Virus record (IMG/VR): IMGVR_UViG_2737471833_000010
Span: 1 to 27,813 of that record
Reading direction: 5' to 3' (one strand)
Length of the DNA stretch: 27,813 bases
Source: a virus
Lineage: Duplodnaviria > Heunggongvirae > Uroviricota > Caudoviricetes
The position numbers were made by a program, and so were the translations under genes. Position 1 is the first letter of the stretch; the number at the start of each line of letters is the position of its first letter. The notes under the pieces were generated by a model. That model was not told the origin of the DNA and searched no databases. It saw only the letters and a list, made by a program, of their open reading frames with translations. Positions 12,114-19,249 of the stretch are shown piece by piece.

Positions 12114-12285
12114 CGAGCAAGATGCACAAACTATTAGCTCATACATAAGGGCATCAAGACCAGATTACAAAGGTCCGGTATTCGTAGATTTATCTCGCCT
12201 TGAGGAGATTTACATGTGGGAAGCAAAGCTACGTACGCATTTTTTTATTCGTAAGATGACTAGCAACATTACAAAACCAATGTAA
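12103..12285 (+). CDS. Hypothetical protein (60 aa)
   Basis: GAGAGGGAAG lies upstream of the ATG. Overlaps the previous gene by 11 nt. AT-rich. Confidence 0.45.
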   Translation: MNLDEQDAQTISSYIRASRPDYKGPVFVDLSRLEEIYMWEAKLRTHFFIRKMTSNITKPM

Positions 12286-16126: not shown

Positions 16127-16201
16127 GGGTCAGTCGTATAAAGGTCATTACGGAAGGCTGTTAACCTTCTTATCGTGGTTCGAGTCCACGCTGTCCCGCC
16201 A
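16127..16201 (+). tRNA. tRNA-like gene, possibly degenerate tRNA-Asn(GTT)
   Basis: Hand-folded: acceptor GGGTCAG/CTGTCCC with one T-T mismatch, weak D-arm, anticodon stem GAAGG/CCTTC with loop CTGTTAA, T-arm CGTGG-TTCGAGT-CCACG, then G-CCA. Could be a pseudo-tRNA. Confidence 0.35.
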
Positions 16202-16206
16202 AATAT

Positions 16207-16282
16207 GCTGGTTTAGCTCCAATGGTAGAGCAGTCGCCTTGTAAGCGAATGGGTAGCGGTTCAAGTCCGTTAACCAGCACCA
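16207..16282 (+). tRNA. tRNA, anticodon TGT (Thr) by hand folding
   Basis: 76 nt: acceptor GCTGGTT/AACCAGC, D-arm GCTC-CAATGGTA-GAGC, anticodon stem GTCGC/GCGAA with loop CTTGTAA (anticodon at 16240-16242), T-arm AGCGG-TTCAAGT-CCGTT, discriminator A and encoded CCA. Confidence 0.65.
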
Positions 16283-17308: not shown

Positions 17309-17742
17309 GCAGAGTAACCGCGATTATCTCCGCTCTGGTTATCTGCATCATCGTCTGTCTGTCATGGGCTGTTAATCATTACCGTGATAACGCCATGACC
17401 TACAAAGAGCAGCGCGATAAGGCCGCATCCATCATCGCTGATATGCAGAAGCGTCAACGTGATGTAGCAGAACTCGACGCCAGATACACAAAGGAGCTTG
17501 CTGATGCTAACGCGACTATCGAAAGTCTCCGTACTGATGTCTCTGCTGGTCGTAAGCGCCTGCAAGTCGCCGCCACCTGTGCAAAGTCAACGACCGGAGC
17601 CAGCAGCATGGGCGATGGAGAAAGCCCAAGACTTACAGCAGATGCTGAACTCAATTATTACCGTCTCCGAAGTGGAATCGACAGGATAACCGCACAGGTT
17701 AACTACTTGCAGGAGTACATCAGGACGCAGTGCCTTCGATGA
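17305..17742 (+). CDS. Rz: i-spanin Rz (145 aa)
   Basis: N-terminus [30 protein letters not shown] matches recalled lambda Rz: a TM helix followed by a coiled-coil periplasmic domain. Confidence 0.9.
17504..17689 (+). CDS. Rz1: o-spanin Rz1 lipoprotein embedded in Rz (+1 frame) (61 aa)
   Basis: AAGGAG lies 7 nt upstream of the ATG at 17504. Signal peptide with lipobox LVVSAC, then a Pro-rich mature region. Embedded-in-Rz architecture as in lambda. Confidence 0.75.
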
Positions 17743-17915
17743 TAGCGATAATTTTACTCATCATCCTTCACATCTGGCTCTGTAGACAGGATGGTGATCA
17801 CTTCTGGAGTGAATCCAGATTAAACATCTCATTGCTGATGCTTGAAGTTGAGCATCTGGCGCGCGGTAAGGGGCTGCGTTGAGATAAGAGCCAGTCATTA
17901 CAAATACCAGGATTT

Positions 17916-17942
17916 AGCCTCGCATTCGCGGGGCTTTTTATT
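17916..17942 (+). terminator. Candidate intrinsic terminator downstream of the lysis cassette
   Basis: AGCCTCGC attc GCGGGGCT followed by TTTTTATT. Preceded by an ATTACAAA motif at 17897-17904. Confidence 0.4.
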
Positions 17943-17963
17943 CCCAACTCTATAGGTAATTTT

Positions 17964-18485
17964 ATGACCCAGCATATTGGCGTAAAACTGATTAACGCCT
18001 TTCCGATGACGAGACAGGCATATAACGATTTTCGTGGCTGGCAGCTTCCTGCCGGAGAAAACGGCGAGGATGAAGGCTATCTGGTTGAATATCTTGATGG
18101 CGGAAAACCTAACACCGATCGCTTTGATGGCTACGTTAGCTGGAGTCCAAAAGAAGTATTCGAAAAGGCTTATCGTCCGGTATCAGGGCTAAGTTTCGGC
18201 CTTGCCATTGAAGCGCTCAAGTTGGGGAATAAAGTTTCCCGTGCTGGCTGGAATGGTAAGGGTATGTGGCTGGCATACGTTAAACCGTACACTGAGGCTG
18301 TTCATACTGGCAGTACGCCTTGCTTTTGCAGTCGCGTCTTTGAGTTGCCTGAAGGTACGCATGGAGAATCGAAACGATCTCCGAAACAACTTCCGTATAT
18401 CGCCATGAAAACAGCGGACGATAAATTAGTGCCGTGGCTGGCTAGTCAGACTGATGTTCTAGCAGAAGACTGGCAAATCATTTAA
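17964..18485 (+). CDS. Hypothetical protein (173 aa), possibly DUF2829-type
   Basis: Intact ORF with AGGT upstream of the ATG. Contains ...AGWNGKGMWL... The family assignment is from weak recollection. Confidence 0.5.
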   Translation: MTQHIGVKLINAFPMTRQAYNDFRGWQLPAGENGEDEGYLVEYLDGGKPNTDRFDGYVSWSPKEVFEKAYRPVSGLSFGLAIEALKLGNKVSRAGWNGKGMWLAYVKPYTEAVHTGSTPCFCSRVFELPEGTHGESKRSPKQLPYIAMKTADDKLVPWLASQTDVLAEDWQII

Positions 18486-18495
18486 CCATGTAGCC

Positions 18496-18529
18496 ATTAC
18501 AAAGCCCATCTACTGGTGGGCTTGATAAT
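18496..18529 (+). repeat. Conserved intergenic hairpin element, copy A (ATTACAAAGCCCA...TGGGCTTGATAATG)
   Basis: 7-bp stem AAGCCCA/TGGGCTT with an 8-nt loop, flanked by ATTACAA and GATAATG. Near-duplicate of the element at 19090-19128. Confidence 0.6.
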
Positions 18530-18718
18530 GAAACCGGAATTTATTCTGGGCAACCAGTTACGGCAGTACAGCGAAACAACCCAAGCCAGAAAGTGGGGAA
18601 ATAACACTGGCAGCCACTGAAAGATGAACCTCCAGCCTTATGGCAAAAAAGATTCTTTGTGGTGGCGGACTGATGGAAAGACATCCTAATCAAGCAACCA
18701 CTCTACAGGGTCATAATT

Positions 18719-19087
18719 ATGAACGACAAGCAAATTGAAAAAGAAATCGCAGCCAATGGTAAGGCGGCTCGCGTTACTCCTGAACACATTGCCAGCATAA
18801 TCGCCAGCGAACATTACTTTACGGCCGCTGATGGTGCTCGCTTTGCTCATGTGCGGAGAAGCGAAACATACAGCGTAAAAATCCCAGACCAGCCTGACGA
18901 GCTGGAGCTGCTGACATTCTGCGTTCTGGTGCTGAAGAATGGCTTTACGGTCACCGGGGAAAGCGCCTGCGCCAGCCCAGAGAACTTCGATGAAGAAATC
19001 GGGCGCAAGATTGCTCGCCAGAATGCTGTAAACAAAATCTGGATGCTCGAAGGTTACTTGCTGAAGCAGAAGCTAAGCGAACAGTAG
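18719..19087 (+). CDS. Hypothetical protein (122 aa), possibly Gp49/gene-66-type phage protein
   Basis: Intact ORF MNDKQIEKEIAANGKAARVTPEHIASIIASEHYF... Family recollection is weak. Confidence 0.5.
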   Translation: MNDKQIEKEIAANGKAARVTPEHIASIIASEHYFTAADGARFAHVRRSETYSVKIPDQPDELELLTFCVLVLKNGFTVTGESACASPENFDEEIGRKIARQNAVNKIWMLEGYLLKQKLSEQ

Positions 19088-19089
19088 TT

Positions 19090-19128
19090 ATTACAAAAGC
19101 CATTCCATACAGAGTGGCTTTGATAATG
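19090..19128 (+). repeat. Conserved intergenic hairpin element, copy B (ATTACAAAAGCCA...TGGCTTTGATAATGG)
   Basis: 7-bp stem AAAGCCA/TGGCTTT with a 12-nt loop and the same ATTACAAA and GATAATG flanks as copy A. Confidence 0.6.
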
Positions 19129-19249
19129 GCTTATACCCTACACGGGATAACTTAACTGATATCCCTTTTAACGGATAAACGGAGCCAATAATGGCAGAGA
19201 ATGTCGGCATTATGGCAGTGAAATTTGGATAAATCGGAGATTAGTACAT

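What the first reader, a model, noticed from the sequence alone, without database searches (positions are those of the whole stretch)
17897..19130. Repeated ATTACAAA-hairpin-GATAATG elements following two unknown genes between the lysis and packaging modules
Two near-identical ~35-bp elements (18496-18529 and 19090-19128) each begin with ATTACAAA, form a 7-bp stem (AAGCCCA/TGGGCTT and AAAGCCA/TGGCTTT) and end with GATAATG. Each starts within about 10 nt of the stop codon of an unknown gene (173 aa and 122 aa). A third ATTACAAA-plus-hairpin sits after Rz (17897-17942), that one with a T-tract. The hexamers are too far apart for a sigma70 promoter, and copies A and B lack U-tracts, so they are not canonical terminators. 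They may be RNA processing or stability elements, protein-binding sites, or the borders of independently mobile gene cassettes in the lysis-to-terminase slot.
Basis: seen in the sequence. Interest (0 to 1): 0.5.

Follow-up and report, generated by a model that had tools for sequence, protein, structure and literature searches.

The report
Conserved hairpin punctuating phage gene cassettes
The two repeated elements are real members of a widespread, apparently undescribed family of sense-strand stem-loops that sit right after stop codons in the late operons of enterobacterial temperate phages, most likely acting on the mRNA and also marking the joints where accessory (here anti-defence) genes are swapped between phages.

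Summary
Observation confirmed and extended. ATTACAAA and GATAATG are not separate boxes. They are the two feet of one longer imperfect hairpin: a lower stem CATTA/TAATG, a conserved 2x2 internal loop CA/GA, a 9-10 bp GC-rich upper stem and a 4-6 nt loop. Copy A is 18495-18530 and copy B is 19086-19131.

The third site (17897) is only a relic left foot fused to an unrelated canonical terminator.

A covariance model finds exactly two copies in the window. It finds many copies in P22, Sf6, HK620 and prophages across Enterobacterales, and the copy-B block occurs in 47% of complete E. coli genomes.

Compensatory changes and a strong G-U asymmetry show the sense strand folds, which points to RNA. 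Copies start 0-15 nt after the stop codons of more than 20 unrelated genes, including major tail genes. In some phages a canonical terminator occupies the same position instead. Mosaic breakpoints fall at the hairpin feet.

The two "unknown" genes are a Tad2-like protein and an Acb4-family (PF13876) protein, both related to known immune-signal sponges.

Best reading: an intercistronic mRNA 3'-end-protecting or processing stem-loop whose conserved sequence also serves as a recombination linker, analogous to T4 PeSLs. The function is inferred, not shown. No Rfam family or paper describing it was found.

The parts
17730..17882 (+). 50-aa ORF (Sf6 gene 65 homologue) overlapping the end of Rz. In Sf6-type phages it is followed directly by a full hairpin A.
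   Evidence: ORF list; phrog_11822 at 2e-37; Sf6, SEN22 and other contexts.
17896..17904 (+). CATTACAAA: relic left foot of a family hairpin, and the recombination joint.
   Evidence: Homology with Sf6 ends exactly at 17904. Sf6 has ...GCCAGTTCATTACAAA followed by the rest of hairpin A. In an O157:H7 prophage the same site has decayed to CATTAAAAA. The covariance model does not hit it.
17916..17943 (+). Canonical intrinsic terminator (8-bp stem, 6 GC pairs, TTTTTATT tail), unrelated to the hairpin family.
   Evidence: Terminator scan; fold at -16.4 kcal/mol; discriminant +17.5; the same element is annotated as a Rho-independent terminator in epsilon34 and mEpX1.
17964..18485 (+). 173-aa gene whose C-terminal half is a Tad2-like domain (anti-Thoeris sponge / AcrIIA7 family).
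   Evidence: Pfam PF11195 at 3e-25, residues 77-173; PDB Tad2 9eib and 8v3e at 1e-16.
18492..18533 (+). Hairpin A. Lower stem 18495-18499 / 18526-18530, internal loop CA 18500-18501 / GA 18524-18525, upper stem 18502-18510 / 18515-18523, loop 18511-18514.
   Evidence: Covariance model 62.9 bits, E 1.7e-13; fold; covariation.
18545..18685 (+). Conserved non-coding or small-ORF leader between hairpin A and the next cassette. It is 96-98% identical in epsilon34, HK620, Kapi1, E212 and P22, where it abuts a family hairpin directly instead of the 122-aa gene.
   Evidence: BLAST breakpoints; sequences.
18719..19087 (+). 122-aa gene of the PF13876 family (N4 Gp49 / Sf6 gp66), which is the Acb4 anti-CBASS sponge family.
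   Evidence: Pfam at 7.7e-37; PDB Acb4 9e4w at 0.0034; the paper linking Acb4 to PF13876.
19086..19131 (+). Hairpin B. Lower stem 19086-19093 / 19124-19131 (includes the A and G of the stop codon), internal loop CA 19094-19095 / GA 19122-19123, upper stem 19096-19105 / 19112-19121, loop 19106-19111.
   Evidence: Covariance model 50.1 bits, E 2.6e-10; fold; 55 of 80 gp66 homologues are followed by a family hairpin.
19131..19179 (+). Two tandem TATCCC-N5-7-GGGATA palindromes that follow the hairpin in many independent contexts. Possibly part of the same composite intergenic block.
   Evidence: Sequences; alternative 2:3 pairing in the fold.

Best explanation
Copies A and B belong to a family of sense-strand RNA stem-loops that punctuate the Q-antiterminated late operons of enterobacterial temperate phages.

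**Anatomy.** Each copy forms in the late polycistronic mRNA directly 3' of a cistron. Its AU-rich lower stem starts at or within about 15 nt of the stop codon. Its GC-rich 9-10 bp upper stem begins about 12-13 nt past the stop codon in the tightest cases.

**Proposed function (inferred).** The hairpin acts in cis as a 3'-end-forming and protecting element. It would be a barrier to 3'-5' exonucleases after downstream cleavage. It could also be a T7-R1.1-like processing site cut at the conserved CA/GA internal loop. Either way it would stabilise and raise expression of the upstream cistron, here two sponge-type anti-defence genes and elsewhere the major tail protein, without stopping antiterminated transcription.

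**Evolutionary consequence.** The roughly 40-bp sequence is nearly identical in many phages. It therefore also serves as a patch of homology at which phage and host recombination systems exchange whatever lies on either side, so it marks cassette borders.

**Shown versus inferred.** Shown: the structure, the folded strand, the position and orientation, the conservation, and the mosaic joints. Inferred: the RNA-level function, the nuclease involved, and the recombination mechanism.
For: **Structure**
- 26 pattern-selected sequences: 90% of cells paired, 9 pairs with double changes, covariation 0.375 against 0.17 shuffled and at most 0.12 in slid registers.
- 56 model-aligned sequences: 91% paired, 12 of 17 pairs with double changes, covariation 0.409 against 0.18.

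**Strand**
- In 49 distinct hairpins there are 64 G-U wobbles on the sense strand against 3 on the antisense strand.
- The contiguous upper stem is 8.7 bp on the sense strand against 5.7 bp on the antisense strand. The sense strand is better in 44 of 49.

**Position and orientation**
- The stop codon lies 2 nt before ATTACAAA in at least 8 unrelated gene families and 3-15 nt before it in most others.
- 54 of 74 contexts have an open frame of at least 60 codons ending within 20 nt 5' of the element. The antisense control gives 6 of 74.

**Unbiased synteny sample**
- 77 of 80 major-tail-gene orthologues (72-100% aa identity) carry the hairpin 0-1 nt after TAA and 6-13 nt before the next gene's SD/ATG.
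- Their foot ATTACAAAG/CTTGATAAT is invariant, while the top shows C-G, U-G and U-A states at the same pair.

**Positional equivalence with terminators**
- After gp66 homologues, 55 of 80 have the family hairpin and 20 of 80 have a canonical intrinsic terminator.
- The same alternation occurs after gene 65 and after Tad2-like genes.

**Not itself a canonical terminator or promoter**.

**Geometry is uniform.** The upper stem is 9 bp in 34 of 49 and 10 bp in 6 of 49. The CA/GA loop is kept even where the lower stem is replaced, as in TTTCCG..CAGAAA.

**Mosaic joints**
- Breakpoints against eight phages fall at 17904, 18490-95, 18543-45 and 19087.
- Hairpin A occurs with at least 14 left and at least 14 right flank classes. 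The Tad2-like, hkbL and gene-65 lefts each occur with three different rights.
- Four loci have a joint inside the loop.

**Restricted location.** The window has only two hits in 27.8 kb, both in the lysis-to-terminase slot.
Against: - There are no transcript, cleavage or half-life data of any kind. The RNA function is inferred from sequence evolution only.
- A plain exonuclease barrier does not explain why the foot sequence and the CA/GA loop are so strongly conserved.
- The total helix (5-8 + 2 + 9-10 bp) is at the short end for E. coli RNase III. This rests on my knowledge of the enzyme and was not tested.
- In some prophages hairpin B sits directly after a canonical terminator, where protecting the upstream 3' end would be redundant.
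- G-T wobbles are also tolerated in folded single-stranded DNA, so the strand asymmetry does not strictly distinguish RNA from sense-strand ssDNA.
- REP elements within 15 nt of a stop codon are reported to lower expression of the upstream gene (from memory: Liang, Rudd and Deutscher 2015). That would argue against an expression-boosting role.
- Most of the sequence sets were collected with patterns that fix the foot. Only searches are unbiased in that respect.
Confidence: 0.55

Rival explanations
1. Weak or conditional transcription terminator or insulator. The hairpin stops or attenuates RNA polymerase that has not been modified by Q, for example read-through or moron transcription in the lysogen. 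Q-modified polymerase reads through it.
For: - It occupies the same position as canonical intrinsic terminators after gp66-like, Tad2-like and gene-65 genes.
- It has a GC-rich stem flanked by an A-rich 5' side and a partly U-rich 3' side (UUGAUAAU), which resembles a degenerate bidirectional terminator.
- The stem-loops of T4 PeSLs act as terminators in reporters.
Against: - There is no U-tract.
- The terminator scan does not call it.
- The discriminant is -18 to -67, against +17.5 for the adjacent real terminator (formula recalled from d'Aubenton-Carafa 1990).
- It lies 6-13 nt upstream of the SD of essential tail genes.
- In O157 and other prophages it sits immediately after a strong terminator.
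- The conserved lower stem and CA/GA loop are not needed for termination.
Confidence: 0.2
2. Pure DNA-level recombination linker. The conserved sequence persists only because it is repeatedly used as homology for module exchange, as in Susskind-Botstein linkers and PeSL-like shuffling. It has no RNA function.
For: Breakpoints fall at the hairpin feet and inside the loop, and flanks reassort in a factorial manner. PeSLs are a precedent.
Against: - Homology use does not require a hairpin.
- It does not predict compensatory changes or the 64:3 sense/antisense wobble asymmetry.
- It does not predict a fixed position 0-2 nt after stop codons.
- It does not explain conservation in the syntenic, non-mosaic position after the major tail gene.
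Confidence: 0.1
3. Folded single-stranded-DNA site for a dedicated recombinase or transposase, like an integron attC site or a REP/RAYT or IS200-type hairpin, making gene-plus-hairpin units actively mobile.
For: - It is an imperfect hairpin with conserved mismatches, located 3' of cassette ORFs.
- The fold is strand-specific.
- GTAG or GTAA often sits at the 5' foot.
- An 8-9 bp direct repeat (C)ATTACAAA flanks the 599-bp terminator-plus-Tad2 segment, at 17897-17904 and 18496-18503.
Against: - I saw no integron integrase, RAYT or IS200-type gene in the loci I inspected.
- The attC core sites are absent from the sequence.
- Joints are not at one fixed nucleotide: they occur at the feet, just downstream, and in the loop.
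- The hairpin top is not linked to the upstream gene.
- The folded strand is the sense strand, and the element also occurs at a fixed syntenic place in a structural operon.
- GTAG is usually simply the upstream stop codon.
Confidence: 0.05
4. Double-stranded DNA operator or unusual promoter, either a palindromic protein-binding site or a -35/-10 pair brought together by the hairpin.
For: It has TTACAA and GATAAT hexamers and overall dyad symmetry.
Against: - Spacer length varies from 20 to 26 bp across the family.
- No promoter is called.
- A dsDNA site would not show G-U-type strand asymmetry or compensatory changes in its centre.
Confidence: 0.03

Closest known systems
PeSL (promoter-early stem-loop) cassettes of T4-type phages (Arbiol et al. 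2010, PMC2839356; Comeau et al. 2014, PMC4122927)
   Same: Both are short conserved intergenic motifs containing a stem-loop. Both start at the upstream stop codon and are concentrated in the variable region rich in accessory genes. Recombination joints map in and next to both motifs, so that ORFs are inserted, deleted or replaced between copies (one search compared).
   Different: PeSLs are composite, with a strong sigma-70 early promoter plus a terminator stem-loop. This element has no promoter and no U-tract. It lies in a Q-antiterminated late operon of temperate lambdoid phages, has an unrelated sequence, and has a conserved 2x2 internal loop. Mini-circles have not been looked for.
REP / BIME extragenic palindromes of enterobacteria
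   Same: Both are imperfect palindromes placed just after stop codons inside operons. REPs are known to protect upstream mRNA from 3' exonucleases (malE-malF; from my knowledge of Newbury et al. 1987). GTAG-like bases sit at one foot of both.
   Different: The sequence is unrelated. The element occurs 1-5 times per genome and, in every context I inspected, inside prophage or phage DNA, not at hundreds of chromosomal sites. I saw no RAYT partner. Here GTAG is usually the stop codon itself.
T7 early RNase III processing sites (R1.1 type)
   Same: Both are intercistronic hairpins in a long phage polycistronic transcript. Both have an upper stem of about 10 bp, an internal loop and a lower stem. 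In T7, a single cut in the loop leaves a stabilising 3' hairpin on the upstream mRNA (established knowledge, Dunn and Studier 1983). The geometry here is 9-10 bp + 2x2 loop + 5-8 bp.
   Different: The lower stem is shorter and the internal loop smaller. There is no sequence similarity and cleavage is untested.
Stem-loops after major capsid genes of lambda, HK97 and P22
   Same: Both are unexplained conserved-position stem-loops right after a highly expressed late structural gene. The P22 record annotates one at 6102-6119 as 'similar in location to stem-loops in phage HK97 and phage lambda'. The window has such hairpins after its capsid gene at about 25185-25230.
   Different: Those stem-loops are sequence-unrelated and are not hit by the covariance model. 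They are not known to share a conserved foot or loop or to mark mosaic joints.
Integron attC sites
   Same: Both are imperfect hairpins 3' of promoterless cassette ORFs. In both, the foot is conserved, the centre is variable and the fold is strand-specific.
   Different: No RYYYAAC/GTTRRRY core sites and no integron integrase were seen. The folded strand is the sense strand. Joints are not at a fixed position.

Membership tests
Intrinsic (Rho-independent) terminator | GC-rich stem-loop | tested here: met
   Upper stems of 9-10 bp, at -11.5 to -14 kcal/mol.
Intrinsic (Rho-independent) terminator | Run of U immediately 3' of the stem (at least 5 T in 8) | tested here: not met
   The tails are TTGATAAT and TTTGATAA. 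The scan does not call them. The discriminant is -18 to -67, against +17.5 for the terminator at 17916.
Sigma-70 promoter | -35 and -10 hexamers separated by 16-18 bp | tested here: not met
   TTACAA and GATAAT are 21 bp (A) and 26 bp (B) apart, and 20-26 bp apart across the family.
PeSL (T4-type phages) | Composite motif containing a strong sigma-70 early promoter | tested here: not met
   No promoter-like site is found in or next to the element.
PeSL (T4-type phages) | Conserved intergenic stem-loop flanking variable ORFs, with recombination joints in the motif | tested here: met
PeSL (T4-type phages) | Formation of excised mini-circles by recombination between copies | not testable with these tools
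   Requires inverse PCR on infected cells.
REP / BIME | High-copy chromosomal distribution, REP consensus and a RAYT partner | tested here: not met
   There are 1-5 places per E. coli genome, in prophage contexts. The sequence is unrelated to REP. I saw no transposase-like gene adjacent in the loci inspected.
REP / BIME | Protects upstream mRNA from 3' exonucleases | not testable with these tools
   Requires mRNA half-life measurements.
Integron attC | R''/R' core sites (RYYYAAC ... GTTRRRY) and an adjacent integron integrase | tested here: not met
   The feet are CATTACAAAG / CTTGATAATG. No integrase gene lies next to the elements in the annotated loci.
RNase III site, T7 R1.1 type | Helix of about two turns interrupted by an internal loop about 10 bp from the apical loop, in an intercistronic position | tested here: inconclusive
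   The geometry is 9-10 bp + 2x2 loop + 5-8 bp and the position is intercistronic. The total length of 16-20 bp is at the lower limit.
RNase III site, T7 R1.1 type | Cleavage by RNase III | not testable with these tools
   Requires in vitro cleavage or rnc-mutant transcript mapping.
Any Rfam family | Match to a curated covariance model | tested here: not met
   No hit on the hairpins at E up to 5. At gathering threshold the whole window gives only two tRNAs.

The most novel reading that the evidence does not exclude
The hairpin is a sequence-specifically recognised element. Its invariant foot and CA/GA loop would be the binding or cleavage site of a particular host or phage protein. It would act as a portable 'cassette terminus' for lambdoid phages. 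In that role it would set the expression level of whatever gene is placed in front of it, notably anti-defence sponges that must be abundant. It would also actively target cassette exchange, a phage counterpart of attC or PeSL working on folded sense-strand nucleic acid.
Probability: 0.12. Interest if true: 0.8.

Novelty: new variant of a known kind. Interest (0 to 1): 0.55.

Why it matters
- **A testable recombination linker.** If the reading holds, lambdoid phages, the classic system for mosaic genome evolution, have a concrete, searchable and experimentally tractable linker at the borders of accessory and anti-defence gene cassettes. Modular-evolution theory postulated such linkers. To my knowledge the clearest worked example so far is the T4 PeSL.
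- **A new structured RNA motif.** The motif is widespread and unannotated. The copy-B block is in about 47% of complete E. coli genomes, and copies are present in P22, Sf6 and HK620. It may tune expression of structural and counter-defence genes.
- **Practical uses.** The motif is a good landmark for finding new accessory or anti-defence genes in the lysis-to-terminase slot. It also flags spurious small ORF calls: P22 orf25 starts inside the hairpin.

Tried and rejected
- **Promoter reading.** Rejected because the spacer is variable (20-26 bp) and there is no scan hit.
- **Antisense-strand terminator.** The minus strand has a better U-run (UUUGUAAU / UUUUGUAAU). It was rejected because common variants (GCCTA, GCTCA) and the conserved U-G pairs become C-A mismatches on that strand. 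Its stem is 5.7 bp against 8.7 bp, and only 3 of 49 hairpins are better on the minus strand.
- **Third ATTACAAA site as a family member.** Rejected.
- **ATTACAAA at 12164 and 12268.** No hairpin partner and no covariance-model hit, so treated as chance.
- **Small ORFs starting at the ATG of GATAATG.** The ORFs are 30 aa after A and 9 aa after B. They have no SD and are not conserved across right-flank classes.
- **IS target site.** In SEN22 the IS sits in the gene-65 ORF, not in a hairpin.
- **Model genomes.** Lambda and the K-12 DLP12 prophage have no copy.
- **Literature.** Six full-text searches, including exact sequence strings, plus a keyword search within the epsilon34 genome paper found no description of the element. 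The JMB papers on HK620 (Clark 2001) and Sf6 (Casjens 2004), which define 'boundary sequences', could not be read. The Sf6 record annotates only bsq7 within gene 63 in this region.
Full report
**1. The observation**

The sequence is as described. ATTACAAA occurs five times in the window against 1.18 expected. The composite ATTACAAA-N15-35-GATAATG occurs only at 18496-18530 and 19090-19128, against none in 100 shuffles.

The two 'boxes' are complementary to each other. The inverted repeats run 18495-18508 / 18517-18530 and 19090-19105 / 19112-19127. As RNA, each element folds into one long hairpin:

| Feature | Copy A | Copy B |
|---|---|---|
| Lower stem | CATTA/TAATG, 5 bp | AGTTATTA/TAATGGCT, 8 bp (includes the A and G of the TAG stop) |
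| Internal loop | CA/GA | CA/GA |
| Upper stem | AAGCCCATC/GGTGGGCTT, 9 bp | 10 bp |
| Apical loop | 4 nt | 6 nt |
| Free energy, z-score | -19.9 kcal/mol, z -3.9 | -20.6 kcal/mol, z -5.2 |

The promoter/terminator scan calls nothing at A or B. It does call the canonical terminator at 17916-17935.

**2. The third site**

The site at 17897 is different in kind. A covariance model built from the family does not hit it.

Homology with Sf6 ends exactly at 17904, the last base of ATTACAAA. In Sf6, SEN22 and many prophages the same 50-aa gene is followed by ...CATTACAAA continuing into a complete hairpin A. In the window, epsilon34, HK620 and others, CATTACAAA continues instead into TACCAGG plus an intrinsic terminator.

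The third site is therefore a relic left foot at a recombination joint. In an O157:H7 prophage it has drifted to CATTAAAAA.

**3. A family, not a pair**

A pattern scan of viral contigs gave about 55 folding hits with 27 distinct sequences and at least six unrelated upper stems between identical feet. These include AAGCCCA/TGGGCTT, AAAGCCATTC/GAGTGGCTTT, AAGCGTC../..GGCGCTT, AAGGGCGG/CTGCCCTT and AAGGGTA/TGCCCTT.

| Measure | 26 pattern-selected sequences | 56 model-aligned sequences |
|---|---|---|
| Cells paired | 90% | 91% |
| Pairs with changes on both sides | 9 | 12 of 17 |
| Covariation score | 0.375 | 0.409 |
| Shuffled control | 0.17 | 0.18 |
| Slid registers | at most 0.12 | at most 0.105 |

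The second alignment leans towards the model by construction.

The model finds exactly two copies in the 27.8-kb window, at 62.9 and 50.1 bits. It finds one in P22 (40308-40350, after rha, overlapping the annotated orf25) and none in lambda or the K-12 DLP12 prophage.

A stricter pattern scan of one genome per species gave 42 folding hits, nearly all in genomes named as Enterobacterales. Genera include Escherichia, Enterobacter, Leclercia, Kluyvera, Yokenella, Pantoea, Serratia, Morganella, Budvicia and Xenorhabdus. The matches in most other phyla did not fold and are about as many as chance predicts (my own estimate was about 23). A handful of folding hits sit in metagenome bins labelled otherwise but carry the same enterobacterial phage flanks.

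The 101-bp block containing hairpin B is present in 2,543 of 5,426 complete E. coli genomes, with no annotation under it beyond the end of the upstream Gp49-family gene. Rfam has no match.

**4. Which strand folds**

In 49 distinct hairpins the sense strand has 364 Watson-Crick pairs and 64 wobble pairs in the upper stem. The antisense strand has only 3 wobbles. The contiguous stem is 8.7 bp against 5.7 bp, and the sense strand is better in 44 of 49.

The common variants GCCTA and GCTCA keep a U-G pair on the sense strand but would give C-A mismatches on the other strand. So the structure is selected on the strand that is the mRNA. Formally it could also be the sense DNA strand.

**5. Position**

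Stop-codon distances are tight. The stop codon lies 2 nt before ATTACAAA in at least eight unrelated upstream gene families, as TAG or TAA followed by CC, TC, TT or AT. It lies 3-15 nt before in most others. There are 21 upstream and 25 downstream protein clusters.

Orientation is consistent. An open frame of at least 60 codons ends within 20 nt 5' of the element in 54 of 74 distinct contexts. The antisense control gives 6 of 74.

The contexts are not limited to the lysis-to-terminase slot:
- Copies lie directly after a major tail protein gene (phrog_853, Big_2 domain).
- Copies lie just upstream of terminase small-subunit genes.

**6. Unbiased samples chosen by gene, not by motif**

*Major tail gene.* Of 80 orthologues with 72-100% aa identity, 77 have the hairpin 0-1 nt after TAA and 6-13 nt before the next SD/ATG. 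The foot ATTACAAAG/CTTGATAAT is invariant. The top shows C-G, U-G and U-A states at the same pair. This shows that the foot is under stronger sequence constraint than the top or the neighbouring coding DNA.

*gp66 gene.* Of 80 homologues, 55 are followed by a family hairpin and 20 by a canonical intrinsic terminator at the same place.

*Tad2-like gene.* The enterobacterial homologues carry hairpin A and some others carry terminators. Several divergent members have a completely different lower stem (TTTCCG ... CAGAAA) but keep CA/GA and an A-like upper stem. Four loci have a joint inside the hairpin loop.

**7. Mosaic joints**

Against Sf6, epsilon34, HK620, Kapi1, mEpX1, E212, IME10 and P22, homology segments begin or end at these window positions:

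| Position | What lies there |
|---|---|
| 17904 | End of ATTACAAA |
| 17939-41 | End of the terminator T-run |
| 18490-95 | 5' foot of hairpin A |
| 18543-45 | Just after hairpin A |
| 18685 | End of the conserved leader |
| 19087 | 5' foot of hairpin B |
| 19200 | Junction with the HK97-like module |

Hairpin A is found with at least 14 left and at least 14 right flank classes. The Tad2-like, hkbL and gene-65 lefts each occur with three different rights. Hairpin B follows gp66 in most cases but also follows six other lefts.

Gene plus hairpin often travel together, but the hairpin is not gene-specific.

**8. The genes**

The 173-aa protein has a C-terminal Tad2-like domain. Pfam PF11195 scores 3e-25, and PDB Tad2 and AcrIIA7 chains score down to 1e-16.

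The 122-aa protein is PF13876 at 7.7e-37. That family was defined as the Acb4 anti-CBASS sponge family in bioRxiv 10.1101/2024.12.30.630793. It has a weak PDB match to Acb4 9e4w.

The slot therefore carries two likely immune-signal sponges. That they function this way here is inferred from family membership.

**9. Mechanism**

*Shown:* a conserved sense-strand hairpin of fixed geometry sits at cistron 3' ends in late operons. In some phages a terminator occupies the same position. It lacks a terminator's U-run, scoring -18 to -67 against +17.5 for the real terminator (discriminant recalled from d'Aubenton-Carafa 1990).

*Inferred:* in Q-antiterminated transcripts it acts post-transcriptionally, either as a 3'-exonuclease barrier or as a processing site.
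- The uniform upper stem above a conserved internal loop recalls T7 R1.1-type RNase III sites, where a cut in the loop leaves a protective 3' hairpin. The stem is 9 bp in 34 of 49 hairpins and 10 bp in 6 of 49.
- In the tightest contexts the GC core begins 12-13 nt after the first base of the stop codon. That is about the leading edge of a terminating ribosome. This is my inference from known ribosome footprints.

The conserved roughly 40 bp also supplies homology for exchange by Red-, Erf- or RecA-type systems. This gives the joints seen and parallels PeSL-mediated shuffling in T4-type phages.

**10. What remains unexplained**

- Why the foot and the CA/GA loop are invariant, which suggests a specific protein partner.
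- Why hairpin B sometimes directly follows a strong terminator.
- What the two TATCCC...GGGATA palindromes that follow the hairpin in many independent contexts do.

**11. Verdict**

This is a new, widespread variant of the known class of intercistronic or cassette-boundary stem-loops. It is not a promoter and not a canonical terminator, and nothing suggests a demonstrably mobile element. I found no prior description in Rfam or in six full-text searches plus a keyword search within the epsilon34 genome paper.

Noticed in passing
window 19131-19179; also L030, L121, L157, L213, L215, L131: Two tandem palindromes, (T/A)TATCCC(C)-N4-7-(G)GGGATAA, about 28 bp apart, follow the hairpin within 0-2 nt in at least seven independent sequence contexts. 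They precede different genes (DUF2560/hkbM, HNH endonuclease and others). The stems are conserved in sequence and the loops are not. The inner halves can also pair with each other (GGGATA/TATCCC), giving alternative structures. Their function is unknown.
   Followed up: partly
L219 (P22 NC_002371) 40308-40406: The annotated P22 orf25 (40329-40406) starts at an ATG inside the loop of the family hairpin and runs through the TATCCC palindromes. That ATG is absent from hairpin B of the window, so orf25 is probably not a real gene.
   Followed up: partly
window 17964-18185 and 18719-19087: phrog_9467 (155-aa profile) matches the N-terminal 74 residues of the Tad2-like protein and, separately, residues 66-117 of the Acb4-family protein. 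This suggests that other phages carry a fusion of that N-terminal domain with an Acb4-like C-terminal part, so domains are shuffled between the two sponge-like genes.
   Followed up: no
window 19191-19232: A 13-codon remnant of the DUF2560 (hkbM / P22 orf80) gene start. Homology to P22-like phages ends at about 19200, where the HK97-like HNH-terminase module begins. This marks the joint between a P22-type accessory slot and an HK97-type packaging module. The same joint is present in L093.
   Followed up: partly
window 25160-25235: Two stem-loops lie directly after the putative major capsid gene (23930-25159). They are CCGCGTAATGCGG followed by T7, and GTGCCCGC-GTTCTG-GCGGGCAC just before the next SD. 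This matches the 'stem-loop after the coat gene' annotated in P22 and said there to occur in HK97 and lambda. They are not related in sequence to the hairpin family.
   Followed up: no
window 16127-16279: Two tRNA genes lie upstream of the lysis cassette, as in Sf6 (tRNA-Asn and tRNA-Thr there).
   Followed up: no
L209 about 5565-5625: One genome copy carries a tandem duplication of the 3' half of the hairpin: GTTACGGTCGCCCTTGATAATG occurs twice in a row.
   Followed up: no
L003 (epsilon34) gene 68; g341c gene 64: In some P22-like phages the same lysis-to-terminase slot holds a free-standing GIY-YIG nuclease gene between the terminator and a family hairpin.
   Followed up: no
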